This document shows, one piece after another, positions 7,825 through 61,361 of a stretch of 64,000 bases of DNA (the stretch's first letter is position 1; each line of letters starts with the position of its first letter). The notes beneath the pieces are model-generated. The model ran no database searches. It had not been told where the DNA came from and worked only from the letters and a program-made list of their open reading frames with translations. The stretch lies in contig CAVUAE010000001.1 in the NCBI GenBank assembly GCA_963739395.1, positions 518,056 to 582,055 of the forward strand. The letters run 5' to 3'. The translations under genes were made by a program, and so were the position numbers. Source of the DNA: an uncultured Chloroflexia bacterium (GTDB lineage Bacteria > Chloroflexota > Dehalococcoidia > Dehalococcoidales > RBG-16-60-22).

Positions 7825-7840
7825 TTAGCGTCCGCGGGGG
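7825..7840. repeat. right copy of the 16-bp direct repeat, TTAGCGTCCGCGGGGG
   Basis: Identical to 6786..6801. It contains the stop (TTA = TAA on the minus strand) and the last codons (..PRGR) of the loader gene. Confidence 0.9.
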
Positions 7841-45378: not shown

Positions 45379-45478
45379 ATACCGACGCAAGTCGGTATCC
45401 AGTATACTTGAGTAAGTATTGTTTATCGGCGAATATGTAAGGTTCGTCTTACTGGATTCCGGTTTTCACCGGAATGGT
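45379..45478. repeat. REPIN-like paired hairpins (TCCAG/CTGGA-type) in the hypB-hypF gap
   Basis: The left arm is TACCGAC-GCAA-GTCGGTA-TCCAG and the right arm is CTGGA-TTCCGGT-TTTC-ACCGGAA-TGGT. Loops and flanks match 36164..36242, while the stems differ but stay fully paired. Confidence 0.8.
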
Positions 45479-45490
45479 AAGAATATTGCT

Positions 45491-47785
45491 ATGATGAAAA
45501 CAAAAACAATTACTTTGGCGCGCATCAGCGTCAGCGGCGTCGTGCAGGGGGTGGGTTTCCGTCCATTCGTTTACCGCTTGGCCAAGCAACACAACCTACT
45601 CGGCTGGGTATGTAATACCTCCGAGGGCGTGAAAATCGAGGTGGAGGGGGAGGTTAAAGACATCGAACTGTTCTTAAACAAACTACGCGATCAGGCGCCG
45701 CCGGTGTCGCATATTGAAGATATCAAAGTCACGTCGGGCACGCCAGCTAACTACGACAAGTTTGAAATCCGTAAAAGTATAGCCGAAGTCGGTAAGTATC
45801 AACTAATTTCCCCGGATATCGCCACCTGCCCTGATTGTTTGAAAGAAATATTCGACCCTACCAACCGCCGTTACCGATATCCTTTTACCAACTGTACGAA
45901 CTGCGGTCCCCGTTTTACGATTATCCAGGACATACCTTACGACCGCCCTAAAACCACGATGAAAAGTTTTAAGATGTGCCCGGCATGCCAGAAAGAATAT
46001 AATGACCCTCTTAACCGCCGTTTTCACGCCCAGCCCAATGCCTGTCCTGTATGTGGACCACAGCTTAACTTGGTAGATAACCAAGGCAAGGTTGTAGTCT
46101 GCAAGGATGTTTTAAAAAAGACCGCCGAACTGCTGAAAGAAGGAAAAATCGTGGCGGTAAAGGGGCTGGGAGGCTTTTTATTAGCCTGCGACGCCACCAG
46201 CGAGAAAGTCGTCAACCGCCTACGCCAGCGTAAGAACCGTCCGGCTAAACCACTGGCGGTAATGGTCGCTGACTTGGATGAAGCTAAAAAACACTGCGAA
46301 GTGAATGATGAAGAAATCAAGCTGCTGACCTCGTCGGGCAGTCCCATCGTTTTATTGAAATGGAAACCTGAATCCAGTATTACTCAAGCAGTCACGCCGG
46401 GACTAAAATACCTCGGCGTAATGCTCCCCTATACTCCCCTCCACCAACTCCTCTTAAGCAAGGTCGGCCTACCGCTGGTGATGACGTCCGGCAACTTAAG
46501 CGAGGAGCCTATCGCCAAAGACAATGATGAGGCTGTAAGACGACTTGGTAAAATCGCCGACTACTTCCTCATACATAATCGCGATATCTACGCCCGGTAT
46601 GACGATTCTGTAATGCTGGTAGAACAAGATATACCCCGCTTTACGCGTCGTGCCCGCGGCTACGCTCCTTATCCCATCCATCTTCCTTACCAGAGTAAAC
46701 AAATACTGGGCTGCGGGGCAGAGGAAAAGAATACCTTTTGCCTGACACGAGATAATTACGCTTTCATCAGCCAGCATATCGGGGACATGGAAAACATGGA
46801 AACGCTTGAACATTATGTCAACACCATCGACCTGTATAAGAAGCTGTTCAGGATTAAACCGGAAATTATTGCCCACGATATGCACCCAGAGTACTTACCG
46901 ACCAAATACGCCAAAGAGCTGGCGGAAAAAGACGGCTTAAAGCTCTTCCCCGTCCAACACCACCATGCACATATCGCGTCCTGCCTGGCGGATAACGGCG
47001 TAAATGGACCGGTTATCGGGGTGGCTTTAGATGGGACGGGATATGGTACTGACGGCAATATCTGGGGCGGGGAATTCATAGTGGCGGATTATAAGGACTT
47101 TAAACGGGCGGCGCACCTAGAATACCTACCATTAGCGGGGGGAACTTTAGCGATTAAAAAGCCCTACCGTACCACCATAGGTTATATGCTGGCTTTAGGA
47201 CTGGATCTAGATAAAAAAATGCCTTTCTTGAAGCAGGTGGACGAGAACGAAATAGTAATTATTAAGAACCAGGTACAGACGAAATTCAACGCGCCGCTGA
47301 CCTCCAGCATGGGTCGACTCTTCGACGCGGTGGCGGCATTAACGAGGATAAGGAGCATAATCGAATACGAAGCCCAGGCGGCTATCGACCTCGAGATGTC
47401 GGCTAATAACGCCCCTGACGAAACAGGATTTTATCCATTCACTTTTGAAGAACGAGATGAAATTATGGTGATTAAGATACATGACCTATTAAGAGCCGTT
47501 ATTTTAGATATCAAAGACCACGCAAGCCAATCCATTATCGCTATGCGTTTTCATAACACGATAACTCGCCTAATTTTAGAGACCTGTCAGAAAATCGCGG
47601 AAGACACAGGCATCAAGCAGGTAGCTTTAAGCGGCGGAGTTTTCCAGAATCGCTTGCTTTTAAGAAAAACCGTGCTTCTGCTTGAGTCCGCTGGCTTTAA
47701 GGTTTATACTCACCGACAGGTGCCCTGCAACGACGGCGGTATTTCGCTGGGGCAAGTGGCGATTGCTAATTATAATGGAGAGTGA
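45491..47785 (+). CDS. hypF: carbamoyltransferase HypF
   Basis: It has an acylphosphatase domain (VSGVVQGVGFRPFVYRLA), two CxxC-x18-CxxC zinc fingers, and YrdC-like and Kae1-like domains. The start is set at the ATG at 45491; the track start at 45419 reads through the repeat. Confidence 0.93.
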   Translation: MMKTKTITLARISVSGVVQGVGFRPFVYRLAKQHNLLGWVCNTSEGVKIEVEGEVKDIELFLNKLRDQAPPVSHIEDIKVTSGTPANYDKFEIRKSIAEVGKYQLISPDIATCPDCLKEIFDPTNRRYRYPFTNCTNCGPRFTIIQDIPYDRPKTTMKSFKMCPACQKEYNDPLNRRFHAQPNACPVCGPQLNLVDNQGKVVVCKDVLKKTAELLKEGKIVAVKGLGGFLLACDATSEKVVNRLRQRKNRPAKPLAVMVADLDEAKKHCEVNDEEIKLLTSSGSPIVLLKWKPESSITQAVTPGLKYLGVMLPYTPLHQLLLSKVGLPLVMTSGNLSEEPIAKDNDEAVRRLGKIADYFLIHNRDIYARYDDSVMLVEQDIPRFTRRARGYAPYPIHLPYQSKQILGCGAEEKNTFCLTRDNYAFISQHIGDMENMETLEHYVNTIDLYKKLFRIKPEIIAHDMHPEYLPTKYAKELAEKDGLKLFPVQHHHAHIASCLADNGVNGPVIGVALDGTGYGTDGNIWGGEFIVADYKDFKRAAHLEYLPLAGGTLAIKKPYRTTIGYMLALGLDLDKKMPFLKQVDENEIVIIKNQVQTKFNAPLTSSMGRLFDAVAALTRIRSIIEYEAQAAIDLEMSANNAPDETGFYPFTFEERDEIMVIKIHDLLRAVILDIKDHASQSIIAMRFHNTITRLILETCQKIAEDTGIKQVALSGGVFQNRLLLRKTVLLLESAGFKVYTHRQVPCNDGGISLGQVAIANYNGE

Positions 47786-47788
47786 ATC

Positions 47789-48367
47789 ATGACTAAAAAA
47801 ACTTTTGGACCCCAACCGTGGCTTTTCCCTCACCCAACGGTGCTGTTAGGTTCGGTGCACGATGGTAAAGCTGATTTTGCCGCTTATGCCTGGTGTGGTA
47901 TTACCAGTGCCGAGCCACCCACAATCTCCGTCGGTATCAGGCACCAGCGGCATACTTTAAAAGGTATTTTCCAAAATAAAACCTTTTCCGTAAACGTTCC
48001 GTCAGTAGACCTCCTTAAAGAGACAGACTATTGCGGCACAGTTTCCGGGGCAGACACGGACAAGGTTAATGACTGTAAATTTAAAGTATTTTATGGTGGT
48101 TTAAAAACGGCGCCACTCATCGAGCAATGCCCGGTTAATCTGGAATGTGAAGTCCTGCACATTCTTAATCTGGGCAGCCACGCTTTGGTGGTTGGTAAAA
48201 TAGTTCAGACGCATGTTTCCGAGGATTGCCTGACTAACGACCAGCCGGATATCCTGAAAATCAAACCATTCGTTTACAGTCGCGGTCCCGTGTCACGCTA
48301 TAACGCTGTCGGCGAAGTACTGGGACAGGCTTTCGACGTCGGCAAAGCGATAAAAAAGAAGGGATAG
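47789..48367 (+). CDS. flavin reductase-like (FMN-binding split-barrel) domain protein embedded in the hyp operon
   Basis: 192 aa with a flavin_reduct-like pattern (PTVLLGS...KADFAAYAW.., NVPS.., ...VNLECEV). It lies 3 nt after the hypF stop and 4 nt before the hypC start. Confidence 0.6.
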   Translation: MTKKTFGPQPWLFPHPTVLLGSVHDGKADFAAYAWCGITSAEPPTISVGIRHQRHTLKGIFQNKTFSVNVPSVDLLKETDYCGTVSGADTDKVNDCKFKVFYGGLKTAPLIEQCPVNLECEVLHILNLGSHALVVGKIVQTHVSEDCLTNDQPDILKIKPFVYSRGPVSRYNAVGEVLGQAFDVGKAIKKKG

Positions 48368-48371
48368 TCTG

Positions 48372-48593
48372 ATGTGTTTAGCCGTACCAGCACTCATCAA
48401 GTCAATTAAAGGTCAACAAGCCGTAGTGGACATCGAAGGCGTGACTAGGGATATCAGTTTACAGCTTACACCGGAGGCAAAAGTAGGCGACTACGTTCTG
48501 CTGCATACCGGCTATGCTATTAGCATCATTGACGCCGACGAAGCCGAGGAAACACTTAAACTTTTAAAAGAGATAAGCGAAGCCAGTCCATAA
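48372..48593 (+). CDS. hypC: hydrogenase assembly chaperone HypC
   Basis: 73 aa with the hallmark MCLAVP N-terminus. Confidence 0.92.
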   Translation: MCLAVPALIKSIKGQQAVVDIEGVTRDISLQLTPEAKVGDYVLLHTGYAISIIDADEAEETLKLLKEISEASP

Positions 48594-48594
48594 C

Positions 48595-48680
48595 GTCATT
48601 GCGAGGAGCGCAGCGACACGGCAATCTCCATTATTGAATTATGACAATGACCAAGATTGCCACGCTTCGCTCGCAATGAC
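48595..48680. repeat. REPIN-like composite palindrome (GTCAT...ATGAC termini) in the hypC-hypD gap
   Basis: The left arm is GTCATTGCGAGGAGCGCAGCGACACGGCAATCT and the right arm is AGATTGCCACGCTTCGCTCGCAATGAC. Each arm is an ATTGC/GCAAT hairpin, and the arms are inverted. Confidence 0.8.
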
Positions 48681-48691
48681 AAAAAAGTAGT

Positions 48692-49786
48692 ATGAAATAC
48701 GTTGAAGAATACCGCGACCCGAAGCTGGCGAAAAAGCTGCTGGAGAAAATACATCAGAAGTCGCATAAGCATATTAAGTTGATGGAATTCTGCGGCGGAC
48801 ATACGGTGGCAATCTTTAAGCACGGACTCCGCCAGCTGTTGCCTCCAAATATCGAGATGCTGTCCGGTCCGGGCTGTCCCGTCTGCGTCACTGCCAGCGC
48901 TGACCTCGATAAAGCGATTATATTAGGAAAGATCCCTGACGTCATCATTACCAGCTTTGGCGATATGGTGCGGGTGCCGGGGAGCTTTTCCAGTCTGCAG
49001 CAGGCTAAAGCCGAGGGTGCGGATGTCAGGATTGTCTATTCCACGCAGGATGCTTTAGCCATCGCCCGTGAAAATCCAACCAAATCAGTAGTCTTTATCG
49101 GCATTGGCTTCGAGACCACTGCGCCGACCGTTGCCGCTTCAATTTTACAGGCAGAACAAGAAAAACTGAAAAATTATTACGTATATTCGCTGCATAAGGT
49201 TTGCCCGCCAATCATGAAAACTATTCTTGACCTGGGCGAGGTGAAGATAGACGGCATTATCTGTCCGGGGCACGTCAGCACCATTATCGGCTCGCGTCCC
49301 TATCAATTCATCGCCGATGACTACCATATCGCCTGCGTCGTTTCTGGTTTCGAGCCAGTGGATATCCTGCTGGCGGTGGAAAGGCTGGTTGAGCAAATTG
49401 AGAGTAATCAGCCGAAGGTAGAAATCGCTTACCGGCGGGGGGTAAAGGAAGAGGGGAACCTGCCTGCTTTACGCTTGATGGACACTGTATTTGAAGTCGG
49501 TGAGGCGAACTGGCGAGGCATCGGTATGGTACCGGGAAGCGGACTGACAATCCGAGAAAAATACAGCCAGTTCAACGCTGAAAAACATTTTATTATCAAA
49601 GTCCAGCCATCCCACGAGCCCAAAGGCTGTATCTGCGGGGCAGTACTGCGGGGCATAAGCACACCTAAAGACTGTAAGCTTTTCCGTAAGACCTGCACGC
49701 CGGAGCATCCTGTAGGTCCCTGCATGGTATCATCAGAAGGAAGTTGCGCCACCTATTACCAATACGGAGACGACAATGGAAGATAA
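48692..49786 (+). CDS. hypD: hydrogenase formation protein HypD
   Basis: 364 aa with MKYVEEYRDP, the CGGHT motif, GPGCPVCV, and C-terminal Cys motifs. Confidence 0.93.
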   Translation: MKYVEEYRDPKLAKKLLEKIHQKSHKHIKLMEFCGGHTVAIFKHGLRQLLPPNIEMLSGPGCPVCVTASADLDKAIILGKIPDVIITSFGDMVRVPGSFSSLQQAKAEGADVRIVYSTQDALAIARENPTKSVVFIGIGFETTAPTVAASILQAEQEKLKNYYVYSLHKVCPPIMKTILDLGEVKIDGIICPGHVSTIIGSRPYQFIADDYHIACVVSGFEPVDILLAVERLVEQIESNQPKVEIAYRRGVKEEGNLPALRLMDTVFEVGEANWRGIGMVPGSGLTIREKYSQFNAEKHFIIKVQPSHEPKGCICGAVLRGISTPKDCKLFRKTCTPEHPVGPCMVSSEGSCATYYQYGDDNGR

Positions 49787-50777
49787 AATCCTGCTCGCTC
49801 ATGGCAGCGGCGGCAAGCTCATGCACGACCTCATCCAGAGCTTTATGCCCGACTTAGCTAATCCCATTTTGGAAAAGCTGGAAGATGCGGCGGTCTTTGA
49901 CGTTAAAGGCAGGCTGGCTTTCACTACGGATAGCTACATCGTTAATCCTATTTTCTTCCCAGGTGGGGATATCGGGCGGCTGGCGGTCTGCGGCACGGTT
50001 AACGACCTCGCCATGAGTGGGGCGAAACCGCTTTACTTGAGTCTGGCTTTTATCATCGAGGAAGGACTACCCGTCGCCGACCTGAAGAAAATCCTCGGCT
50101 CGATTAAAAAAGCTGCGGCGGAAGCCAACGTAAAAATCGTCACCGGCGACACGAAAGTGGTGAATAAAGGTTCTGCCGATAAGCTTTTTATCAATACGGC
50201 GGGAGTGGGCATTGTACCAGAGGGAGTGGATATCTCCGCCGCTAACGCCAAAATCGGCGATAAAGTGATCTTAAGCGGCAACATCGGCGACCATGGTATC
50301 GCCGTATTAAGTCAGCGGGAGGGGCTTAAGTTCGGTACGTCTGTCCCCTCCGATTGTGCCCCGTTGAATGACTTGGTAGCAGATATGCTGATGGTAACGA
50401 AAAACATCCACTGCATGCGCGACCCCACCCGGGGTGGACTGGCAACCACGCTGAATGACTTTGCGGAAAATTCAAACGTGGGTATTATGATAGAAGAAGA
50501 TAAAGTGCCAGTTAATAAAGCCGTGTTGGCAGCCTGCGAGCTGCTGGGACTCGACCCGTTATATATCGCCAACGAGGGCAAGCTGGTTGCTGTCGTGCCG
50601 GCTAAAAACGCTGACGCAGTACTCGCTGTGATGAAGAAAAACAAGTATGGCAAGAACACCACCATCATCGGCGAAGTCGTCGCCGAGCATCCTCGACGCG
50701 TGGTTATGAAAACAATTTTAGGGGCTTCGCGGATTATCGATATGCCGGTAGGTGAACTGCTGCCGCGGATATGCTAA
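49776..50777 (+). CDS. hypE: hydrogenase expression/formation protein HypE
   Basis: 333 aa with a PurM-like fold. LAHGSGG N-terminus; the C-terminus ends PRIC (the carbamoyl/cyano carrier Cys). Confidence 0.93.
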   Translation: MEDKILLAHGSGGKLMHDLIQSFMPDLANPILEKLEDAAVFDVKGRLAFTTDSYIVNPIFFPGGDIGRLAVCGTVNDLAMSGAKPLYLSLAFIIEEGLPVADLKKILGSIKKAAAEANVKIVTGDTKVVNKGSADKLFINTAGVGIVPEGVDISAANAKIGDKVILSGNIGDHGIAVLSQREGLKFGTSVPSDCAPLNDLVADMLMVTKNIHCMRDPTRGGLATTLNDFAENSNVGIMIEEDKVPVNKAVLAACELLGLDPLYIANEGKLVAVVPAKNADAVLAVMKKNKYGKNTTIIGEVVAEHPRRVVMKTILGASRIIDMPVGELLPRIC

Positions 50778-51244
50778 AGATGAATAAAGAATCTACTCCC
50801 CGTATCGTCGTCATTGGCGTGGGCAACCTGCTGCAAAAAGATGAAGGTGTTGGCATCCACGCTGTTCAAGCGCTCCAGGAAATGAAATTACCCAAGGATG
50901 TGGAACTAATTGATGGGGGGACATCGCCGGATATAATCGCCTATACCCGGGCGACATATAAAATGATAATCATCGATTGCGCTAAAGCAGGGGGAAAACC
51001 AGGGACGTTTTACTATTTTAAGCCAGAGGATTTAGCCACGGGTGAAGGGACCTTAACCTCTGCGCATGAAATGGGCGTCGTCGAAAACCTGAACTTAATG
51101 TCGCTGACCGGTAATAAACCCAAAGATGTCGTCATCATCGGCATCGAACCGGCCGAAATCGACTGGGGCATGGAGCTTTCGCCAACGCTCAAGCAAAAGC
51201 TGCCGGACTTAATAAAAATGGTTTTAAAAGAGATTAGCAATTAA
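50771..51244 (+). CDS. [NiFe]-hydrogenase maturation endopeptidase (HyaD/HybD/HycI family)
   Basis: 157 aa with IVVIGVGNLLQKDEGVGIHAV and DGGT motifs typical of the family. Confidence 0.85.
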   Translation: MLKMNKESTPRIVVIGVGNLLQKDEGVGIHAVQALQEMKLPKDVELIDGGTSPDIIAYTRATYKMIIIDCAKAGGKPGTFYYFKPEDLATGEGTLTSAHEMGVVENLNLMSLTGNKPKDVVIIGIEPAEIDWGMELSPTLKQKLPDLIKMVLKEISN

Positions 51245-52261: not shown

Positions 52262-52358
52262 GGGAGCGGATGAGTCCCGGTGGGCTTCGCGGACTTCAAA
52301 TCCGTTGGGGTCCTTCTTTGAAGGATTCGGTGGGTTCGACTCCCATGCGCTCCCGCCA
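52262..52358 (+). tRNA. selC: tRNA-Sec (anticodon TCA), with encoded CCA
   Basis: GGGAGCGGATGAGTCCCGGTGGGCTTCGCGGACTTCAAATCCGTTGGGGTCCTTCTTTGAAGGATTCGGTGGGTTCGACTCCCATGCGCTCCCGCCA. The anticodon loop CTTCAAA, a long variable arm, a 6-bp D stem, a GGTTCGACTCC T arm and a G-CCA end closely parallel E. coli selC as I recall it. selA and selB are nearby. Confidence 0.92.
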
Positions 52359-52367
52359 GAATGTATT
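52350..52367. repeat. attL-like direct repeat spanning the tRNA-Sec 3' end
   Basis: CTCCCGCCAGAATGTATT. It is repeated at 53485..53502 as CTCCCGCGAGAATGTATT (17/18). Confidence 0.85.
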
Positions 52368-52434
52368 CTGTCTTTATATAAGATGGAGACAAAGAAGTCG
52401 ATTTTACGAAAAGACTCAGAGGTTTCATACTAAT

Positions 52435-53361
52435 ATGGAAAAAAGGAAGATACTGGTAATACTTGATGACGAGTTAAGTATTCTAAAAGCATATAAACGC
52501 TTTATTAACCTTTTGCCAGAAGTAAAACACATAGAATTAGCCTTTTTTTCCACTGACTCGGATGCAGTAAAATTCGTCAAAGAAAATGCCGAATACATAA
52601 TCGGTTTCATTCAAGATATGAGTAGACCATCAGTTGGTCAGACAGGCTTTGCTGGAATACGTTTTTTAAATGAAGTAATTAACACACTGACACCTTGGGC
52701 TAAGACTGTCATAGCTTCAGGGCAAGTATATGCAGAAGAAATCATGGAATTATTGTACTCAGCGAAATATAAAATTCGGTTTCTTGCTAAACCTTTCGAT
52801 GTGAGTCATTTCCGTATTAACATACAATGGTTATTAGAATCACAGGTTGATACTGAAGATTTTCTACTTAACGAAGCCCAATTGAAGGATTCTAAAATCA
52901 TACAGTTGATAAAAACACCTTGGGAAGACGTATATAGATATATCGCTGAAAATCCTTCATTTCTTCACTCTATGGATCCAAGGTTGTTCGAGGAACTAGT
53001 TGCAGACATCTTCAAGCGTTTCGGCTGGGATGTGGAACTGACTGCTCATACCCATGATGGTGGATATGATATTATAGCTATCAAGCAAAATGATCCTACA
53101 TGCCAACGCATACTCATTGAAGCTAAACGATATGCACCAAATCGAGTAGTTGGTGTCGAGATTGTTCGTTCAATATACGGACTTAGGTCTCTTCACGCAG
53201 CAAGCCAAGTTGTTCTAGCAACAAGCTCTTATATATCTGATGTGGCAAAAAAAGAATTCCTTAGAGTAATACCTTGGGAACTGGACTTTATTGAACGGGA
53301 TAGGATTTTAGATTGGTGCAGGCAATATGGTGGAGTGAGTCTAGATGGGTCTTTAAAATGA
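52435..53361 (+). CDS. fusion of a response-regulator receiver (REC) domain with an Mrr-type PD-(D/E)xK restriction endonuclease domain
   Basis: REC features are VILDDE (acidic pair), IIGFIQDMSRP (phospho-acceptor Asp position), VIASG and FLAKPFD (Lys-Pro). Mrr_cat features are FEELVADIFKRFGW...GGYDIIAI...ILIEAKRY. The start is set at the ATG at 52435; the track ORF from 52270 overlaps the tRNA. Confidence 0.7.
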   Translation: MEKRKILVILDDELSILKAYKRFINLLPEVKHIELAFFSTDSDAVKFVKENAEYIIGFIQDMSRPSVGQTGFAGIRFLNEVINTLTPWAKTVIASGQVYAEEIMELLYSAKYKIRFLAKPFDVSHFRINIQWLLESQVDTEDFLLNEAQLKDSKIIQLIKTPWEDVYRYIAENPSFLHSMDPRLFEELVADIFKRFGWDVELTAHTHDGGYDIIAIKQNDPTCQRILIEAKRYAPNRVVGVEIVRSIYGLRSLHAASQVVLATSSYISDVAKKEFLRVIPWELDFIERDRILDWCRQYGGVSLDGSLK

Positions 53362-53484
53362 TTACACTGTTTCATGTATGATATTGAGAATAGAAACAGG
53401 AACATTGTTTGGGCGAATATACACAGTGTCTTAATTGACAATGATGACAACTACTATTTTCAGTAATTCTAAGATTTATCTATA

Positions 53485-53502
53485 CTCCCGCGAGAATGTA
53501 TT
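53485..53502. repeat. attR-like direct repeat
   Basis: CTCCCGCGAGAATGTATT, matching 52350..52367 at 17/18 positions. Confidence 0.85.
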
Positions 53503-53564
53503 ATCTCCTTGAGAATTATTCTCAGGTGTGTAATAAAACCAATAGCTATTTCTTCTAGATAGCT

Positions 53565-54340: not shown

Positions 54341-55174
54341 TTATTTCTTTACAAGCAGGAGCGGCGTGTTCCCACCCAAAAAGACTTTTTGGGCGACGCT
54401 GCCTAGAGACCAAAGTTTAGTCTTATTCCGGGTTGACATCGCTACCAGGTCGTAAGCGAGTTTATCCGCCGTGTCGATAATTTTATCGGCGACAGAACCA
54501 ACATCAACCTTATATTCTGCGTGTATCCCTACTTCCTTGCATAAATTACACTGGTGTTTTAAATAGGCGTCCGCTTCTTTATAATATTTTTTATCCTTCT
54601 CACTGACCACCTGGATGAGCGTGATTTCCATTTCGAGTTTAGAAGCCATATTAACAATATAGGGAATTATTTCTTCGCTCATTTTTGAGCCGTCTAGTGG
54701 CACCAGAGCTTTTTTTAATATACGCTTCTCACGAATATCAGAACGTCGTTTGTGGGCTCTGATGAGCATCACGGCATGACTCATATTAGCCCTTACTACC
54801 TTATCGGCGACGCTGCCTACCGCCCAACGAGTAAGTCCAGACCGACCGTGGCTCGCCATAACAATCAGTTGATAAGGCATTTTACTGGCGTATTTTATAA
54901 TAGTTTCGGCGGGGCTACCGGACAGAGTGACTTTCATTACCTCGATTGGCTTAGCGCCAGTATTCTCAATATATTTATTGGCATGATATTTGGTGACTTT
55001 TATAATCTGGTCCATGTATGTTGTATGCTTTTTGGGCTGAAGGACCTCGTTGGGCTCAAAAACAGTCAGCAGACTGATATAGGAACCCATCTTGGCGGCT
55101 AATTCTTCAGCGTAAGGTAAAGCCGCCTCTGCCAGCTTGGAACCATCTAAGGGAACAATAATTCGTTCGTACAT
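54341..55174 (-). CDS. tandem universal stress protein (two UspA domains)
   Basis: 277 aa. There are two repeats of the Usp pattern: YERIIVPLDGS...ASHGRSGLTRWAVGSVADKV and KKALVPLDGS...STRNKTKLWSLGSVAQKV. Confidence 0.85.
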   Translation of the reverse strand: MYERIIVPLDGSKLAEAALPYAEELAAKMGSYISLLTVFEPNEVLQPKKHTTYMDQIIKVTKYHANKYIENTGAKPIEVMKVTLSGSPAETIIKYASKMPYQLIVMASHGRSGLTRWAVGSVADKVVRANMSHAVMLIRAHKRRSDIREKRILKKALVPLDGSKMSEEIIPYIVNMASKLEMEITLIQVVSEKDKKYYKEADAYLKHQCNLCKEVGIHAEYKVDVGSVADKIIDTADKLAYDLVAMSTRNKTKLWSLGSVAQKVFLGGNTPLLLVKK

Positions 55175-55274
55175 CTTCTTTCCTTAACGGGTGATATTAC
55201 ATATTTTATGAATATTTGATAGTACATAATAGCATATCTACATCAAATTTCAATGGGTATCTTCCCCTAATTTA

Positions 55275-55303
55275 TTGACAGTCGCTAATCCCAGACCTAT
55301 AAT
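55275..55303 (+). promoter_or_regulatory. perfect-consensus sigma70 promoter
   Basis: TTGACA (55275-55280), a 17-nt spacer, then TATAAT (55298-55303). This is followed by an AGGAGG SD and the ATG at 55333. Confidence 0.65.
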
Positions 55304-55332
55304 CTCTATTACCCTTTTTAGGAGGTAAAAAC

Positions 55333-55869
55333 ATGTGCTTTTCTAAAATAAAGGAGTTTTTCATCAGAAAAGAGGAACCTGTACCTACACCTCAAATTCA
55401 ACCCACAGAACTACCTTATCCAGAAGAACCAAAAGATACCAATAAAACAATAGATAGTATAAACGTCGCCGCATTAGTTAATAATTGGCTAACCAAGTAC
55501 CACGTTCCAGCGCAATACCGGAATTACTGGCAAAACTTTCACATCATCATCTCTACAACTTACGATGCCCCGGCAGCTACCTCCTCACAGAAAGATGAAA
55601 TGTACCTAAGGCCGGAATGGGCAAATGAAGGGGTACTATCCCACGAACTCGCCCATGAAAGTTATTCGCTGCTTAATTGCTTTAAGAAAGTCACGTTCAA
55701 GTGTAAGTATAATAAGTACCTGACCTCTGACCCATTAATAGTTTTACTACATTCCAAGAATACTTATATGAATACTAATATAGTTGAAGCTCATGCGGAA
55801 ATATATCGTTATATCGGGGACCATATGCCGACAGAGTTATATCAATATTATCCAAAATTATTAGTGTGA
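55333..55869 (+). CDS. hypothetical protein with an HExxH motif (possible small zinc metallopeptidase)
   Basis: 178 aa with SHELAHE and, downstream, EAHAE. It is AT-rich, and I recognise no family. Confidence 0.45.
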   Translation: MCFSKIKEFFIRKEEPVPTPQIQPTELPYPEEPKDTNKTIDSINVAALVNNWLTKYHVPAQYRNYWQNFHIIISTTYDAPAATSSQKDEMYLRPEWANEGVLSHELAHESYSLLNCFKKVTFKCKYNKYLTSDPLIVLLHSKNTYMNTNIVEAHAEIYRYIGDHMPTELYQYYPKLLV

Positions 55870-55889
55870 TAATACCAAAATTAACGTAA

Positions 55890-56087
55890 CTATTTATAGG
55901 GTTCTTTGTGGCCGCAGTTCGGGCAGAGATAATATTTAGACATCGGTAAGAAATAAGCCAGCGGCGCCAGCAGGCAGCCCAAAGGCGATACCAGACAGCC
56001 GAGGCAGCCGACGCAGCCTAGATATTCCAGTACGTTCTTCCGTGCCTCGCAATAATTCATTGGCGTGCCGCATTGAGGACAATTCAT
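55890..56087 (-). CDS. small LITAF-like zinc-ribbon membrane protein
   Basis: 65 aa. CPQC, then a hydrophobic Cys/Gly/Leu-rich segment (YLGCVGCLGCLVSPLGCLLAPLAYFL), then CPNCGH. This is the split zinc-knuckle plus membrane-insertion layout of LITAF/SIMPLE-like domains. Confidence 0.5.
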   Translation of the reverse strand: MNCPQCGTPMNYCEARKNVLEYLGCVGCLGCLVSPLGCLLAPLAYFLPMSKYYLCPNCGHKEPYK

Positions 56088-56109
56088 AACACTCCTTCTT
56101 TCAAATGTT

Positions 56110-56226: not shown

Positions 56227-58077
56227 TTAGTAAAGTAAGTGGTCATCCCCCACCCGCTTAGTCACTTTCTCCTTATCCAGGTATTCCAGCAGCGCCTGGA
56301 CGTACTTACGGCTGGAACCGAACATATCCCGTACTTCTCCCAACGTAATCTTGCCGTTCTTTTTGATTTGGGCAGTGATTTTGTATTTCATTTCGTCGTA
56401 GGCTTGGGCGGAAAAGACGATATTATCACTCACCTTAACCACCTTGCCCTGTCCGATAAGGATATTGAGCAAATCCGGGTCGGGGATAAGGTCGGAGGGC
56501 GGGGCAAAGGGGCTGGCGGCTAAAGACTTTAAGAACTTATCCATTTTATCCTGCTGGGCAGCAGTCAGCTTAACCGTATGAGATGGGAGGCGGATATAGC
56601 CTCCCTCCTCTATCAAAATCCCCTTCTTGATCAAGCTCTCCAGTGCAAGTGTTACAAAATTCCCCAGTTTAAGTCGGGTGGCGAACTCCGCCCGGGGCAT
56701 GCCGGGTCGGGCGGGGTACTTCTTATGATATTCCGCCAGATTAGCAACGGTTTTTTCGCTTAAGTTTTTCCAGCCAGGTGCCGTCAAGAGCAGACGATTT
56801 TTACTTTCACCAAGGGCAATAACGCGTCCTTCCTCAACTAATAAATTTATGACGCTTGTAATTTCATTTAACGGAATATTACTCTGTATTGATAGTGCGG
56901 CAAGCTCCAGCGGCTGTTTGGTTTCCAGCAGGGCTAAGATTACCTCTCCAGCAGTGCCGCTTTCTTTAACCTTAAGGTTCTCGATGACTTCGGGACGGAA
57001 CCGGCGAAGTCTTTTAGCCTGCGCGTCCACAATTTCTCCACCGCCCAGTGTCTCAATAGGCGAGCGGATAATATATTTATCACCTTTTATAATCGCCAGC
57101 GGCTTTTCTAACGTCAGTTGTGCCCAGGTGACGTCGCCGGGCTTAAGCGCCTCACTTTCTAACAAGCGTACTTTAGCCATCGTCTCCGCCGCTAAGGTAT
57201 GAAAGCTTATCTCCGCGCCGTGCTTAATTCCGTGTTTTAAATAAGCAATCAGCTTAAGATTCACTGTGACTAGATTGGTGGGTTTAAGCCAGCCGGGCTT
57301 GGTCACCACATCACCTCGCGTTAGCTGGCTAGTGTTAATCCCCACCAGGTTCGCCGCCACCCGACTGCCCGGAGTAGCGGTATCTATTTTCGCTTTATGC
57401 GTCTGGAGGGCGCGGATTCTGGACTTCAAACCGGTGGGGACAATTTCCACCTCCTGTCCCACGGTTAAAGCGCCGTCGATAAGCGTGCCGGTGACCACCG
57501 TGCCAGAGCCGGTAATCGTAAAAATACGGTCGATGGGGAGGCGGGGACGTCCCAGGTCTTTCTTAGGTTCGGTTTGGTCCAACTGCTTATCAATAACGCT
57601 TACGAGCTCCGGAATGCCTTCGCCGGTGACCGAGGAGACGGCAATGATAGGCGACCCAGCGATGGTAGTAGTGGCGATGAGCTCTTCCAACTCCATGCGG
57701 ACCAGCGCCAGCATCTCCTCGTCCACTAAGTCTTTTTTCGTGATGGCGACCACCCCGCGTTTTACCCCGATTAAGTCCAGAATGGCGAGGTGCTCAAGCG
57801 TCTGGGGCATGATGCCTTCGTTGGCGGCGACAATCAGCAAAGCCAGGTCGATACCACCGACGCCTGCCAGCATATTCTTCACGAAACGCTCGTGCCCCGG
57901 CACATCGACAATACCCACCTCTCGACCGCTCGGTAGCTTGAGCCAGGCAAAACCCAAATCGATGGTCATGCCTCGCTCTTTTTCTTCCCGCAGACGGTCG
58001 GGGTCAATACCGGTGAGTGCTTTCACCAGCAGCGACTTGCCGTGGTCGATATGACCCGCTGTACCGAGAACGAACAT
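56227..58077 (-). CDS. selB: selenocysteine-specific translation elongation factor SelB
   Basis: 616 aa. The N-terminal GTPase has GTAGHIDHGKS, DVPGHE and TKKD motifs. The long C-terminal winged-helix extension is characteristic of bacterial SelB. Confidence 0.9.
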   Translation of the reverse strand: MFVLGTAGHIDHGKSLLVKALTGIDPDRLREEKERGMTIDLGFAWLKLPSGREVGIVDVPGHERFVKNMLAGVGGIDLALLIVAANEGIMPQTLEHLAILDLIGVKRGVVAITKKDLVDEEMLALVRMELEELIATTTIAGSPIIAVSSVTGEGIPELVSVIDKQLDQTEPKKDLGRPRLPIDRIFTITGSGTVVTGTLIDGALTVGQEVEIVPTGLKSRIRALQTHKAKIDTATPGSRVAANLVGINTSQLTRGDVVTKPGWLKPTNLVTVNLKLIAYLKHGIKHGAEISFHTLAAETMAKVRLLESEALKPGDVTWAQLTLEKPLAIIKGDKYIIRSPIETLGGGEIVDAQAKRLRRFRPEVIENLKVKESGTAGEVILALLETKQPLELAALSIQSNIPLNEITSVINLLVEEGRVIALGESKNRLLLTAPGWKNLSEKTVANLAEYHKKYPARPGMPRAEFATRLKLGNFVTLALESLIKKGILIEEGGYIRLPSHTVKLTAAQQDKMDKFLKSLAASPFAPPSDLIPDPDLLNILIGQGKVVKVSDNIVFSAQAYDEMKYKITAQIKKNGKITLGEVRDMFGSSRKYVQALLEYLDKEKVTKRVGDDHLLY

Positions 58078-58103
58078 TTTTTCTCTACATCAATTTTATA
58101 TTT

Positions 58104-58619
58104 TTAACGTTTCACAGGCGTCACTGCCTGTGACACAAATAACCATTTATAGTTTACCGGCTGCTTAACTATTCCCGCTTTTACAGGATTAAATATAACG
58201 TAATTCATTATGTCGAAGAAGTCATTTTCATTCCTGATAATTCGGTCATAGTTTTCATCAATCCAAATACTGCCTTTAACATGTAATACTCTTTGTATTT
58301 CATGAGCCGAGTAGGATTTAATACTATGCATTATCTGAGCAAGGCTGTAATAAACTCCTCTAGACTGTTCTAGCGGTAACAATACTATATGAACGTGCGT
58401 TTTCATTACAACGCAGGCATACAATTTATATTTTTTATCGATGTGATACTTAATAGCCGCTAAAACAATATCTTTAGCCGGTGGAGTTAGTTCATATCCT
58501 ATCGCTACATTAAAAGTGATAAAATAAGCACTCCCGGGGTTCTCCCAGTGTGGCAGATTCCTTTTGTATATTCGGAACTCTTTAACTGGTTTTAACCTAG
58601 AGCCTGATTTCAATATCAT
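58104..58619 (-). CDS. IS200-like Y1 (HUH) transposase of the REP-associated (RAYT) type
   Basis: 171 aa with YKRNLPHWENPGSAYFITF, the HUH motif THVHIVLL, and C-terminal NYVIFNPVKAGIV (catalytic Tyr region). It is AT-rich and flanked by inverted hairpins. Confidence 0.75.
   Translation of the reverse strand: MILKSGSRLKPVKEFRIYKRNLPHWENPGSAYFITFNVAIGYELTPPAKDIVLAAIKYHIDKKYKLYACVVMKTHVHIVLLPLEQSRGVYYSLAQIMHSIKSYSAHEIQRVLHVKGSIWIDENYDRIIRNENDFFDIMNYVIFNPVKAGIVKQPVNYKWLFVSQAVTPVKR
58112..58133. repeat. hairpin flanking the RAYT gene (3' side, overlapping its last codons)
   Basis: TCACAGGC-gtcact-GCCTGTGA, an 8-bp stem. Confidence 0.8.
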
Positions 58620-59891: not shown

Positions 59892-61250
59892 TTATTTATC
59901 AGCCAGACTGGAAAGCGCTTTGATAACAATATCATCTTCTTCCGGCAGGACAGTGCGAGGGTCGAGGAGGAGCTGGTCTTTTTCCACTCGCCCGATGATT
60001 GGAACTACCATAAGGCGTAACTTACGCCCGATTTCTTGTGATTTCTTGCCGCCACCAATAGATACCAGCTTGGTCGGCAAGCTGCCGCCTGGTAAACTGC
60101 CACCCCCTACCATCGTCTCCCCATTAACCACTTTAGCGTCACCGTAAGCCTTTGCCCAGTTTTTGGCGCGTTTTTCTATTTCCTTCAGCGGCGCGGCAAT
60201 CATTCGCCAGACCGGAATTTTAACGACCGCCTCTCCTTTGAGATAATACAGTAGCGTTACTGCCAATGCTGCCAGTCTCGTTTTATCGATGCGTAATGCC
60301 CGCGCCAACGGGTGTCGCTTAAGTTTATCGATATACTGCTTTTCACCGACGATAATGCCAGCCTGCGGTCCGCCTAATAACTTATCGCCGGAGAAGAAGG
60401 TAAGCGAGACTCCTACTTTAACGCTTTGCTGCACCATCGGCTCCGGAGCTAATCCGAATTTGGTAGTATCCAGCAAACTTCCGCTACCGATATCGTCAAG
60501 AACTAATAAGTGGTGTTTCTTACCGATATTCACCAACTCTTCTAACGTGACTTCACTGGTAAAGCCCACCAGCCTAAAATTACTGGAATGTACGCGCATA
60601 AGAGCCACAGTTCCCTCGTCGATGGCTTCTTCAAAGTCGCGGGCATAAGTACGATTAGTCGTCCCTACCTCGACAAGTTTTACGCCGCTCTGCCGCATGA
60701 CGTCCGGAATGCGGAAGCCACCCCCTATCTCCACCGCCTGACCGCGAGAAACGATGACTTTTTTACGCTTGGCTAAAGCCGTAAGTCCTAGAAGCACCGC
60801 CGCGGCGTTATTATTAACAACAAGCGCCGCTTCGGCGCCGGTAAGCTGGCATAAAAGACTCTCTACGTGTACATGGCGCGACCCTCGTTCGCCGCTTGTT
60901 AAGTCAAACTCAAGATTGGCGTAGCCGCGGCTGGCTTCTTCCATGGCTGTCAGAGCTTGTTCACTTAAAGGCGCACGTCCAAGATTAGTATGTAAAATCA
61001 CGCCGGAGGCATTGATTACACGGCGTAGACTTGGTTTGACGATAGTATTAAGTCGATTCAGTGTCGCAGTAACTATTTGGTCTAGGGAGGGGCGGGGTTT
61101 ACCTGACTTTATGTTTTTACGTTCTTGCTCCAGCTGCTGTCGGACAACATCAACTAATAACTCATGAGGGTAGTTCTTGGTCGAACGGGCAAATCGGGCG
61201 TCAGTTAACACCTTATCAACACTCGGCAATTTCCGCAGTTCCGTGTCCAT
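59892..61250 (-). CDS. selA: L-seryl-tRNA(Sec) selenium transferase SelA
   Basis: LRKLPSVDKVL N-terminus and the PLP-lysine region (FSGDKLLGGPQAG). I chose the ATG at 61250; the track begins at the TTG at 61268. Confidence 0.9.
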   Translation of the reverse strand: MDTELRKLPSVDKVLTDARFARSTKNYPHELLVDVVRQQLEQERKNIKSGKPRPSLDQIVTATLNRLNTIVKPSLRRVINASGVILHTNLGRAPLSEQALTAMEEASRGYANLEFDLTSGERGSRHVHVESLLCQLTGAEAALVVNNNAAAVLLGLTALAKRKKVIVSRGQAVEIGGGFRIPDVMRQSGVKLVEVGTTNRTYARDFEEAIDEGTVALMRVHSSNFRLVGFTSEVTLEELVNIGKKHHLLVLDDIGSGSLLDTTKFGLAPEPMVQQSVKVGVSLTFFSGDKLLGGPQAGIIVGEKQYIDKLKRHPLARALRIDKTRLAALAVTLLYYLKGEAVVKIPVWRMIAAPLKEIEKRAKNWAKAYGDAKVVNGETMVGGGSLPGGSLPTKLVSIGGGKKSQEIGRKLRLMVVPIIGRVEKDQLLLDPRTVLPEEDDIVIKALSSLADK

Positions 61251-61361
61251 CGGCTTAATTCTACACAATAAATAGGTTTACTTCAAAATGTAGTAGAATG
61301 AAAATATAGACCTATATTATAATTTCCCAGCAACATGATTTATCCAGCAGGAAAACATCTT

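What the first reader, a model, noticed from the sequence alone, without database searches (positions are those of the whole stretch)
52435..53361. Response-regulator receiver domain fused to an Mrr-type restriction nuclease: a possibly phosphorylation-gated DNA-cleaving effector
The N-terminal ~125 residues keep every hallmark position of a phospho-accepting receiver.
- The acidic pair (LDDE).
- The acceptor Asp (IQDMSRP).
- The Ser/Thr position (VIASG).
- The Lys-Pro (LAKPF).

The C-terminal ~130 residues match the Mrr_cat PD-(D/E)xK pattern (FEELVADIF..GW, GGYDIIA, ILIEAKRY). A ~60-aa linker joins the two parts.

No histidine kinase is encoded in the islet or anywhere in this window. Its location in a tRNA-borne AT-rich islet suggests a defence or addiction role in which a nuclease is switched by a two-component signal.

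I do not know of a characterised system with this logic. The suggestion is an inference from domain content.
Basis: partly seen in the sequence, partly recalled or inferred. Interest (0 to 1): 0.7.

Follow-up and report, generated by a model that had tools for sequence, protein, structure and literature searches.

The report
Solitary receiver-domain Mrr nuclease on tRNA-SeC islet
A small foreign DNA islet inserted at the selenocysteine tRNA gene of a Dehalococcoidales bacterium carries one gene for a DNA-cutting enzyme fused to a phosphorylation "switch" domain; it has no partner kinase nearby and is probably a rare, untested variant of two-component-style anti-phage effectors.

Summary
ORF 52435-53361(+) encodes a 308-aa protein. 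Residues 1-134 form a divergent but genuine response-regulator receiver (REC) domain. Residues 177-295 form an Mrr_cat PD-(D/E)xK nuclease domain.

Pfam misses the REC domain in this protein. It is nevertheless supported by a family profile (PDB REC 2rjn, E=6e-6), by hits to PF00072 domains in a 1.84-billion-protein library, and by an AlphaFold (βα)5 fold (TM about 0.8 to REC structures).

Across 39 homologs the phospho-acceptor residues are kept in 34-38 of 39 members. The nuclease residues E186, D212 and K231 are invariant, and E229 is E or Q in 38.

The gene sits alone in a 1,135-bp, 33-43% GC islet. The islet is bounded by a 22/26 direct repeat of the tRNA-SeC 3' end, and a related contig lacks the gene.

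No histidine kinase was found in the window or in 11 homolog neighbourhoods. Those neighbourhoods often hold integrases or recombinases and defence genes.

Detocs is a characterised defensive two-component system, and a minority of its effectors are REC-REase fusions.

This is therefore a rare, metagenome-only, kinase-less variant. Phospho-gating and a defence role are inferred, not shown.

The parts
52435..53361 (+). REC-Mrr_cat gene (308 aa plus stop), the only gene of the islet
   Evidence: The ORF and its translation are. There are 39 full-length homologs at 35-56% identity, all aligned from the same start.
52435..52836 (+). Receiver (REC) domain, residues 1-134. Candidate phospho-acceptor is D61; acidic pair D11/D12; S95; K119; switch-position F116.
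   Evidence: Profile against PDB gives REC at E=6e-6. The AF2 model shows a (βα)5 fold. Foldseek gives TM about 0.8 to REC structures. Conservation in 39 homologs: D11 34, D12 37, D61 36, S/T95 38, K119 36.
52837..52962 (+). Interdomain region, residues 135-176: a low-confidence helix or disordered linker at 141-159, then a conserved helical lead-in (W163, L177).
   Evidence: pLDDT is below 50 for residues 141-159. W163 is nearly invariant and L177 is invariant.
52963..53319 (+). Mrr_cat PD-(D/E)xK nuclease domain, residues 177-295. Catalytic candidates are E186, D212, E229 and K231.
   Evidence: PF04471 at E=7.8e-21. All 39 of 39 members match it. E186, D212 and K231 are 39/39; E229 is E in 34 and Q in 4. 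The catalytic region aligns to the AspBHI catalytic region. Foldseek hits AspBHI and MspJI.
52262..52358 (+). tRNA-SeC gene (anticodon TCA); its 3' end is the left boundary of the islet
   Evidence: ARAGORN. Rfam RF01852 at 73.3 bits, E=1.6e-14.
52350..52375 (+). Left copy of the att-like direct repeat (last 9 nt of tRNA-SeC plus 17 nt)
   Evidence: the repeat finder family D1. It is unique in the window, and 0 of 2000 shuffles reach 22/26.
53485..53510 (+). Right copy of the att-like direct repeat (22/26 identical), the right boundary of the islet
   Evidence: GC returns to about 0.5 just downstream.
52359..53484 (.). Low-GC islet body (GC 0.33-0.43 against about 0.52 in the flanks); it holds no integrase and no second gene
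   Evidence: Composition profile. ORF list. The related contig L133 keeps the hycI-SDR-tRNA-SeC...selB-selA order but lacks this gene.

Best explanation
The gene encodes a solitary response-regulator-type nuclease. An N-terminal receiver domain that looks competent for phosphorylation is joined by a flexible linker to an Mrr-family PD-(D/E)xK endonuclease domain. The protein lacks the DNA-recognition (Mrr_N-type) domain found in classical Type IV restriction enzymes.

The gene arrived by horizontal transfer as a single-gene cargo integrated at the 3' end of tRNA-SeC.

**Most likely mechanism (inferred).**
- The unphosphorylated protein is an autoinhibited or monomeric nuclease.
- Phosphorylation of D61 switches the receiver. 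The donor could be a non-cognate host kinase or a small-molecule donor such as acetyl phosphate.
- The switched receiver dimerises through its α4-β5-α5 face or releases the nuclease domain.
- Two PD-(D/E)xK domains then assemble into an active endonuclease that cuts DNA with little sequence specificity.
- In the cell this would act as a signal-gated anti-phage or abortive-infection effector, or as an addiction effector. It would be functionally analogous to the DtcC effector of Detocs, but without a dedicated kinase (DtcA) or buffer receiver (DtcB).

**Shown here:** both domains, conservation of both active sites, the solitary gene organisation, the islet and its repeats, and the mobile or defence-type neighbourhoods of homologs.

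**Inferred:** phosphorylation, the direction of the switch, DNA cleavage and the defence role.
For: **Domains.**
- Mrr_cat at E=7.8e-21.
- REC by profile and by structure.
- A sister clade shares a 54-60% identical nuclease half and carries a REC that Pfam does call. P0052 scores 36 bits against a cut-off of 30.2; P0240 carries a precomputed PF00072 call.

**Active sites.**
- Receiver: D11 34/39, D12 37/39, D61 36/39, S/T95 38/39, K119 36/39.
- Nuclease: E186, D212 and K231 39/39; E229 is E or Q in 38/39.
- Mrr_cat scores far higher than the 'inactive' NA-iREase1 model, 74.8 against 27.3 bits.

**Solitary status.**
- 0 of 11 homolog neighbourhoods (±7-10 kb) contain a histidine kinase or a stand-alone REC.
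- No kinase was found in the 64-kb window.

**Defence or mobile context of homologs.**
- SIR2+HerA.
- Gabija-like AAA_15/OLD-TOPRIM plus a UvrD-family helicase, with a serine recombinase.
- Integrase, Cap4 nuclease and HsdM.
- AbiJ_NTD4.
- Integrase.
- Serine recombinase, relaxase, T4CP and an nSTAND6-TPR NTPase.
- TIR and AbiJ_NTD3-TIR proteins.
- SNF2 helicase and an SMC-like ATPase.

**Insertion.** The evidence is the direct repeat, the GC drop, and the gene's absence from the syntenic relative L133.

**Precedent for the logic.** In Detocs, defence requires the kinase His and the receiver Asp, and REase effectors occur in a minority of operons.
Against: - There are no experimental data for any family member.
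- No phosphodonor is identified. The lack of a kinase in cis across phyla is awkward for a classical two-component model.
- Pfam's own REC model does not reach threshold for this protein, and only 3 of 39 members hit it weakly.
- The receiver carries family-specific features whose effect on phosphochemistry is unknown: a conserved R64 at D+3, an enlarged β3-α3 loop, and an LTPWAKT motif.
- The predicted inter-domain geometry is uncertain (pTM 0.50), so the autoinhibition and dimerisation steps are speculative.
- The defence association rests on 11 neighbourhoods with no statistical background model.
- Only 64 kb of a contig of about 1.47 Mb was visible, so a kinase acting in trans cannot be excluded.
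Confidence: 0.5

Rival explanations
1. This is the effector of a Detocs-like defensive two-component system whose kinase, and possibly a buffer receiver, are encoded elsewhere in the genome. The gene would be an unlinked DtcC analogue rather than a truly kinase-independent protein.
For: Detocs shows that an HK to REC-effector relay works in phage defence, and some DtcC proteins carry REase effectors. The full set of phospho-acceptor residues is conserved. Only 64 kb of a contig of about 1.47 Mb could be inspected.
Against: Detocs is defined as a three-gene operon. Here 0 of 11 homolog neighbourhoods and the window itself lack any kinase or stand-alone REC. The family is scattered across phyla on mobile elements, which makes dependence on a specific unlinked kinase unlikely. 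No Detocs model was among the PADLOC hits; only Mrr-type nuclease models matched.
Confidence: 0.2
2. The receiver is not phosphorylated. It would serve as a phosphorylation-independent dimerisation or regulatory module, or as a sensor for a phage protein or small ligand, as in atypical response regulators. The protein would then be a constitutive or ligand-gated Mrr-type nuclease.
For: The REC domain is divergent: Pfam misses it. It has an enlarged β3-α3 loop and a conserved Arg at D+3. No kinase lies in cis anywhere. Orphan atypical response regulators that act without phosphorylation are known (general knowledge).
Against: Atypical, phosphorylation-independent receivers usually lose one or more of the acidic, Thr or Lys residues. 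Here all five are retained in 87-97% of 39 members at 35-56% identity, which indicates purifying selection on phosphochemistry. The sister clade has a canonical REC.
Confidence: 0.17
3. It is an ordinary Type IV (modification-dependent) restriction endonuclease of the Mrr/MspJI kind. It would restrict modified foreign DNA, with the N-terminal domain playing only an accessory role.
For: The best PADLOC hits are mREase_IV models. The nuclease core aligns with AspBHI and MspJI. Source databases name homologs 'restriction endonuclease'.
Against: The PADLOC matches cover only the catalytic core (residues 177-291) and score low, at 27-31 bits. The DNA-modification reader domains that define those enzymes (Mrr_N winged helix, SRA-like) are absent and are replaced by REC.
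Confidence: 0.08
4. It is not a nuclease in vivo. The Mrr_cat fold would act as a DNA-binding output domain, so the protein is a transcriptional response regulator; or the gene is a decaying remnant of an integrated element.
For: There is a weak secondary match to the 'inactive' NA-iREase1 family (27.3 bits). The islet has no integrase and looks like a remnant.
Against: E186, D212 and K231 are invariant and E229 is E or Q in 38 of 39. Mrr_cat scores about 75 bits. The ORF is intact and full length relative to homologs. No homolog sits in a conserved regulon (11 contexts).
Confidence: 0.05

Closest known systems
Detocs (defensive two-component system; DtcA kinase, DtcB buffer receiver, DtcC REC-effector), Rousset et al., bioRxiv 10.1101/2023.01.24.525353
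   Same: Both have an N-terminal receiver domain fused to a cell-killing or DNA-targeting effector in an anti-phage context. The effector position is modular, and a minority of DtcC proteins carry restriction-endonuclease-fold (PF18742) or TOPRIM effectors. Phosphotransfer to the receiver Asp is required for Detocs defence.
   Different: Here there is no DtcA-type TPR-kinase and no DtcB in cis, in the window or in any of 11 homolog loci. The effector is Mrr_cat (PF04471), not PNP or PF18742. The REC is a distinct divergent subfamily. No Detocs model was among the PADLOC hits. Nothing has been tested experimentally.
Type IV modification-dependent restriction enzymes of the Mrr/MspJI/AspBHI group
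   Same: They share a homologous PD-(D/E)xK catalytic core with the D...(E/Q)xK motif and are single-polypeptide, stand-alone genes.
   Different: Those enzymes use an N-terminal modified-DNA reader (Mrr_N winged helix or an SRA-like domain). Here that position is occupied by a receiver domain, so target recognition by DNA modification is not expected.
PADLOC candidate system PDC-S02 (uncharacterised single-gene candidate with an Mrr-like nuclease)
   Same: It is a single-gene candidate of similar length (profiles of 324-390 positions), and the matches extend over the linker and nuclease region.
   Different: The scores are low (23-29 bits for the query; best E=2.7e-10 among members), so this is domain-level similarity. 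The N-terminal domain of PDC-S02 could not be inspected. No function or mechanism is published for PDC-S02 in the papers found.
Enzymatic response regulators in which REC gates a catalytic output (CheB, PleD, RpfG, PorX)
   Same: They have the same REC-linker-enzyme layout. PorX structures are the top full-length Foldseek hits. Relief of inhibition or dimerisation on phosphorylation is the established mechanism for this class (general knowledge).
   Different: None of these has a PD-(D/E)xK DNA endonuclease as its output, and all have known cognate kinases or phosphorelays.

Membership tests
Response-regulator receiver domain (REC, PF00072 / CheY-like superfamily) | (βα)5 flavodoxin-like fold | tested here: met
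   In the AF2 model β1-α1...β5-α5 spans residues 5-134 with pLDDT mostly 86-97. Foldseek gives TM 0.77-0.86 to stand-alone REC structures.
Response-regulator receiver domain (REC, PF00072 / CheY-like superfamily) | Significant sequence-profile similarity to REC | tested here: met
   The Pfam HMM misses the query. The family profile hits REC 2rjn at E=6.2e-6 and 3jte at 1.5e-4. It also reaches proteins carrying PF00072 REC domains at E about 1e-10 to 1e-8 in 1.84e9 sequences.
Response-regulator receiver domain (REC, PF00072 / CheY-like superfamily) | Conserved active-site quintet (two acidic residues after β1, acceptor Asp after β3, Ser/Thr after β4, Lys after β5) | tested here: met
   D11, D12, D61, S95 and K119 lie at the predicted strand ends. 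They are conserved in 34-38 of 39 homologs.
Response-regulator receiver domain (REC, PF00072 / CheY-like superfamily) | Actual phosphorylation of the acceptor Asp | not testable with these tools
   This needs biochemistry: acetyl phosphate or a kinase, Phos-tag, BeF3-.
Mrr_cat PD-(D/E)xK nuclease (PF04471) | Profile match above the curated threshold over the whole domain | tested here: met
   74.8 bits against a cut-off of 21, profile positions 1-115 of 115. All 39 of 39 family members match.
Mrr_cat PD-(D/E)xK nuclease (PF04471) | Catalytic E...D...(E/Q)xK residues present and conserved | tested here: met
   E186, D212 and K231 are invariant; E229 is E in 34 and Q in 4 of 39. The region aligns to the AspBHI D...ExK region.
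Type IV modification-dependent restriction enzyme (Mrr/MspJI type) | N-terminal modified-DNA recognition domain (Mrr_N winged helix or SRA-like) | tested here: not met
   The N-terminus is a REC fold, and there is no Mrr_N or SRA hit.
Detocs | Three-gene operon: TPR-histidine kinase DtcA, stand-alone receiver DtcB and REC-effector DtcC, all adjacent | tested here: not met
   No kinase or stand-alone REC lies next to the gene in the window or in 11 homolog loci.
Detocs | DtcC-type protein: N-terminal REC fused to a toxic effector | tested here: met
   The REC plus Mrr_cat architecture is established. No Detocs model was among the PADLOC hits.
Integrative genomic islet at a tRNA gene | Direct repeat of the tRNA 3' end at the far boundary, atypical composition, and absence from relatives | tested here: met
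   The repeat is 22/26 and 0 of 2000 shuffles reach that score. GC is 0.33-0.43 against 0.52. The syntenic contig L133 lacks the gene.
Integrative genomic islet at a tRNA gene | An integrase or recombinase inside the element | tested here: not met
   The 1,135-bp islet holds only the REC-Mrr gene, so it is a remnant or a minimal cargo.

The most novel reading that the evidence does not exclude
A kinase-independent, single-gene immune or abortive-infection nuclease. Its receiver domain would read the cell's pool of small-molecule phosphodonors (for example acetyl phosphate), or be hijacked or triggered during infection. A two-component receiver would then act as a self-contained metabolic sensor that licenses non-specific DNA cleavage. 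That would explain how the gene can move between phyla without a cognate kinase.
Probability: 0.15. Interest if true: 0.75.

Novelty: new variant of a known kind. Interest (0 to 1): 0.5.

Why it matters
If the receiver really gates the nuclease, this would be the simplest known form of two-component-style immunity: one protein, no dedicated kinase, transferable between phyla. It would extend the Detocs principle (phosphotransfer that controls a lethal effector) to Mrr-type nucleases.

It would also raise a testable question: what phosphorylates an orphan receiver on a mobile element? The candidates are acetyl phosphate, promiscuous host kinases, or a phage-induced change.

In practical terms, a phosphorylation-switchable non-specific endonuclease could serve as a tool.

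There is an annotation lesson too. Databases label the whole family simply 'restriction endonuclease' or 'hypothetical protein'. Only 2 of the proteins returned in the two homolog searches carried a precomputed PF00072 call.

Tried and rejected
- **Pfam, NCBIfam and PADLOC on the query alone.** The REC domain was not detected. I did not take this as absence, because profile and structural tests found it.
- **NCBIfam.** It gave only a spurious HisZ hit (E=0.035), which I ignored.
- **Exact look-up of the window protein's own contig.** It is not on record. The cluster look-up shows a singleton with no name.
- **Species-representative genomes.** The window's genome was not retrieved. Only about 5 full-length relatives turned up among 185,579 species, so the family is rare. 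This scan is pattern-based and can miss members.
- **Empty-site search.** I scanned metagenome contigs with the tRNA-SeC 3' end. No contig showed an exact empty attB. One syntenic relative (L133) lacks the gene but has other cargo and its own tRNA-end duplication.
- **Plasmid and phage collections.** Only hits to the Mrr_cat domain were found, with no full-length relatives.
- **tRNA genes next to homologs.** None was found in 9 loci, so tRNA-SeC targeting is not a family trait.
- **Literature.** No paper on REC-Mrr_cat was found.
- **'Inactive REase' (NA-iREase1) reading.** Rejected, because the catalytic residues are invariant and Mrr_cat scores far higher.
- **Longer ORF from 52270.** Rejected. 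It overlaps the tRNA, and homologs align from M at 52435.
- **Promoter and terminator scan.** Uninformative: 7 promoter-like sites against 4.7 expected, and the only terminator-like hit lies inside the tRNA.
Full report
**1. What is at the coordinates**

The window holds an intact ORF at 52435..53361 on the + strand, encoding 308 aa. A longer reading from 52270 overlaps the tRNA gene. It is not supported, because 39 full-length homologs align from the Met at 52435.

**2. The nuclease half**

Pfam Mrr_cat (PF04471) matches residues 177-295 over the full profile, at E=7.8e-21 and 74.8 bits against a cut-off of 21. The matches to NA-iREase1 (27.3 bits) and Mrr_cat_2 are much weaker.

- In an alignment of 39 full-length homologs at 35-56% identity, E186, D208, D212, K231 and R232 are invariant. 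E229 is E in 34 and Q in 4.
- A family profile aligns the D...ExK region to the catalytic region of the Type IV enzyme AspBHI.
- Foldseek finds the AspBHI and MspJI nuclease domains.

The catalytic machinery is therefore under selection, and the domain is best read as an active endonuclease.

**3. The receiver half**

Five lines of evidence agree.

- *Single-sequence search.* phmmer against PDB chains finds the REC domain of 2rjn (E=0.022). The alignment places DDE, the acceptor D, the SG and the K in register.
- *Family profile against PDB.* A profile of the N-terminal 160 residues of 25 homologs gives 2rjn at E=6.2e-6 and 3jte at 1.5e-4. Nearly all of the 26 hits at E<=1 are REC or CheY proteins.
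- *Family profile against a large library.* Run against 1.84 billion representative proteins, the same profile first finds its own family: 38 proteins at E<=1e-10, either about 300-330 aa long or shorter fragments. It then finds proteins that a Pfam scan shows carry PF00072 receivers, in hybrid histidine kinases, NtrC-type regulators and CheY-like proteins.
- *Structure.* The AlphaFold2 model has mean pLDDT 84.9. It shows β1-α1-β2-α2-β3-α3-β4-α4-β5-α5 over residues 5-134. D11/D12 follow β1, D61 follows β3, S95 follows β4 and K119 follows β5. Foldseek gives target-normalised TM 0.77-0.86 and rmsd 2.3-3.2 Å to stand-alone receivers, including 3jte, 3hv2, Spo0F, DrrB, HupR and Sln1.
- *Sister clade.* A related clade whose nuclease half is 54-60% identical carries a receiver that Pfam does call. 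P0052 scores 36 bits against a cut-off of 30.2, and several others hit weakly.

Conservation of the phospho-acceptor set among the 39 homologs is D11 34, D12 37, D61 36, S/T95 38 and K119 36. The switch position three residues before the Lys is aromatic in 22 of 39.

The family has its own features: R64 at D+3 (34 of 39), a variable-length enlarged β3-α3 loop, and an LTPWAK/RT motif before β4. I cannot say what these do.

**4. The region between the domains**

Residues 141-159 are predicted with pLDDT below 50 and vary in sequence. Residues 160-176 are a conserved helical lead-in to the nuclease; W163 is nearly invariant. The true flexible linker is therefore about 20-25 residues, not 60. The pTM of 0.50 means the relative placement of the two domains is not reliably predicted.

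**5. The islet**

tRNA-SeC lies at 52262-52358 (ARAGORN; Rfam 73.3 bits).

- A 26-nt direct repeat begins 9 nt before the tRNA 3' end (52350-52375) and recurs at 53485-53510 with 22 of 26 identity.
- No other copy with 19 or more of 26 matches exists on either strand of the window. None of 2000 shuffles of the 3 kb downstream exceeds 19 of 26.
- GC falls from about 0.52 to 0.33-0.43 exactly between the repeats.
- The 1,135-bp interval contains only this gene, with no integrase.

The host is an uncultured Dehalococcoidales bacterium: its PurA is 85-93% identical to PurA from Dehalococcoidales MAGs, and the contig is 1.47 Mb long.

A related metagenome contig, L133, has an SDR protein 82% identical to the window's. 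It keeps the order hycI-SDR-tRNA-SeC ... selB-selA but lacks the REC-Mrr gene. It also carries its own exact 32-nt duplicate of the tRNA-SeC 3' end 206 nt downstream. The tRNA-SeC 3' end is therefore a recurrent integration site in this lineage, and the REC-Mrr gene is accessory cargo. I did not find an exact empty site.

**6. Kinases**

A motif screen of all ORFs of 120 aa or more found no H-box or G-box combination. Pfam scans of the 30 largest other ORFs in the window found only housekeeping functions. These include DnaB, NusA, IF-2, PurA, MutL, PNPase, HypF, SelA and a Type II R-M pair. None has HisKA, and the only HATPase_c hit is MutL. Smaller ORFs were not all scanned.

**7. Homologs and their contexts**

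The family is rare and almost entirely metagenomic.

- About 60 full-length clusters at 90% identity were found among 5.8 billion proteins.
- 38 representatives at 50% identity have the specific N-terminal module.
- About 5 full-length relatives were found among 185,579 species-representative genomes. They come from Acidobacteriota, Thermoanaerobaculia, Phycisphaerae, a deltaproteobacterium and Melioribacter (a pattern-based scan).
- None was found in the plasmid or phage collections.
- Source databases call these proteins 'restriction endonuclease' or 'hypothetical protein'.

In 11 neighbourhoods the gene is always a solitary unit, and none contains a histidine kinase or a stand-alone receiver. 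The neighbours are:

| Locus | Notable neighbours |
|---|---|
| L001 | SIR2+HerA |
| L002 | Gabija-like AAA_15/OLD-TOPRIM plus a UvrD-family helicase; serine recombinase |
| L003 | tyrosine integrase, Cap4 nuclease, HsdM |
| L005 | no defence-type or mobile-element genes |
| L043 | AbiJ_NTD4 |
| L044 | metabolic genes |
| L045 | integrase |
| L006 | serine recombinase, relaxase, T4 coupling protein, nSTAND6-TPR NTPase |
| L166 | RelA_SpoT |
| L167 | TIR and AbiJ_NTD3-TIR proteins, group II intron RT |
| L168 | SNF2 helicase, SMC-like ATPase |

The last two proteins (P0250, P0262) have a more divergent version of the N-terminal module that still keeps the QDSxR acceptor motif. P0247 is a clear family member. 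This pattern is typical of mobile defence cargo, but I did not compute an enrichment statistic.

**8. Mechanism**

What is shown is the architecture, the conserved active sites and the context.

My preferred mechanism borrows from what is established for enzymatic response regulators, where phosphorylation relieves inhibition or drives dimerisation through α4-β5-α5. It also borrows from PD-(D/E)xK nucleases, which generally act as dimers. On this view, phosphorylation of D61 converts an inactive monomer into an active nuclease dimer that cuts DNA with little specificity, because the DNA-reader domain of classical Mrr enzymes is missing.

Because the gene travels without a kinase, the donor is most simply a small molecule such as acetyl phosphate, or cross-talk from resident kinases. 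The opposite polarity is equally compatible with the data: the protein would be phosphorylated and off in healthy cells, then dephosphorylated and on when metabolism collapses.

Position T+1 is Gly or Ala in 36 of 39 members. From my own recollection of work on CheY-like receivers, this is compatible with access by small-molecule donors. That is a lead, not a test.

**9. Comparison with known systems**

A TPR-histidine kinase (DtcA) phosphorylates a REC-effector protein (DtcC), with a stand-alone receiver (DtcB) as a buffer. Defence requires the kinase His and the receiver Asp. About 80% of effectors are PNP ATP nucleosidases, and a minority are endonucleases (REase PF18742, TOPRIM) or transmembrane domains (bioRxiv 10.1101/2023.01.24.525353).
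- *Other conflict systems.* REC domains are also noted among effectors of NTP-dependent conflict systems (PMC7159879) and in Type I-B CoCoNuT CnuA (PMC11090510).
- *Membership.* The present gene fails the Detocs membership test because it has no three-gene operon. It fails the Type IV restriction-enzyme test because it has no modified-DNA reader.
- *PADLOC.* Its hits (mREase_IV, PDC-S02, ZorD) are domain-level matches to the nuclease core. PDC-S02 is an uncharacterised candidate.

I found no paper describing a REC-Mrr_cat protein.

**10. Verdict**

- The protein is a new, rare, kinase-less variant of a known kind: a receiver-gated toxic effector in a defence or mobile-element context.
- Its main interest is the open question of how an orphan receiver on a mobile single-gene islet is switched.
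- Interest is 0.5.

Noticed in passing
window 52350-52375 / 53485-53510; L133 2626-2659 and 2832-2865: The 3' end of tRNA-SeC looks like a recurrent integration site in this Dehalococcoidales lineage. The window has a 22/26 repeat flanking the islet. A related contig has an exact 32-nt duplicate of the tRNA-SeC 3' end 206 nt downstream, enclosing no gene.
   Followed up: partly
window 34073-34969 (+) and 34966-35673 (-): A Type II restriction-modification pair: an N4/N6 DNA methylase (PF01555) convergent with an MvaI/BcnI-family restriction endonuclease (PF15515, E=5e-47).
   Followed up: no
window 45419-51244, 52262-52358, 56227-58077 (-), 59892-61268 (-): The hydrogenase maturation genes (hypF, hypC, hypD, hypE, hycI-type protease) lie directly upstream of the selenocysteine machinery (tRNA-SeC, selB, selA). 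The stretch between tRNA-SeC and selB is variable between relatives. In the window it holds REC-Mrr, PlsY, a universal stress protein and two small ORFs. In L133 it holds a coiled-coil protein and an MscS-like channel.
   Followed up: partly
window 55000-56100 and 58000-58500: Two further low-GC patches (0.37-0.41). The first holds a 178-aa ORF (55333-55869, +) and a 65-aa Cys-rich zinc-ribbon-like ORF (55890-56087, -) between the stress protein and selB. They may be additional foreign insertions.
   Followed up: no
window 7825-9240 (-): A 471-aa ORF carries two IstB/DnaA-like AAA+ modules in tandem. It lies next to DnaB helicase (9859-11241) and a DnaB_2/DnaD-like ORF (9155-9862). This looks like an unusual duplicated helicase-loader.
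   Followed up: no
protein P0135 (1219 aa, from the N-terminal profile search): This protein has the architecture SIR2_2 + NARF + PAS + HisKA + HATPase_c + REC. It is a SIR2 effector domain fused to a hybrid histidine kinase, another possible marriage of two-component signalling with a defence effector.
   Followed up: no
proteins P0063-P0098, P0274-P0302: The same Mrr_cat clade is fused to many other N-terminal modules: sigma-70 region 4 HTH, RRM, IF2_N, GAF, and AAA or NACHT-like NTPases. The nuclease therefore seems to be a modular effector with swappable sensor or targeting domains.
   Followed up: no
L167 and L168 (proteins P0250, P0262): A divergent sub-branch of the family keeps the acceptor motif (F/I)QDSxR but has an insertion of about 15 residues right after it. 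These genes sit next to TIR and AbiJ proteins, or next to SNF2 and SMC-like genes.
   Followed up: partly
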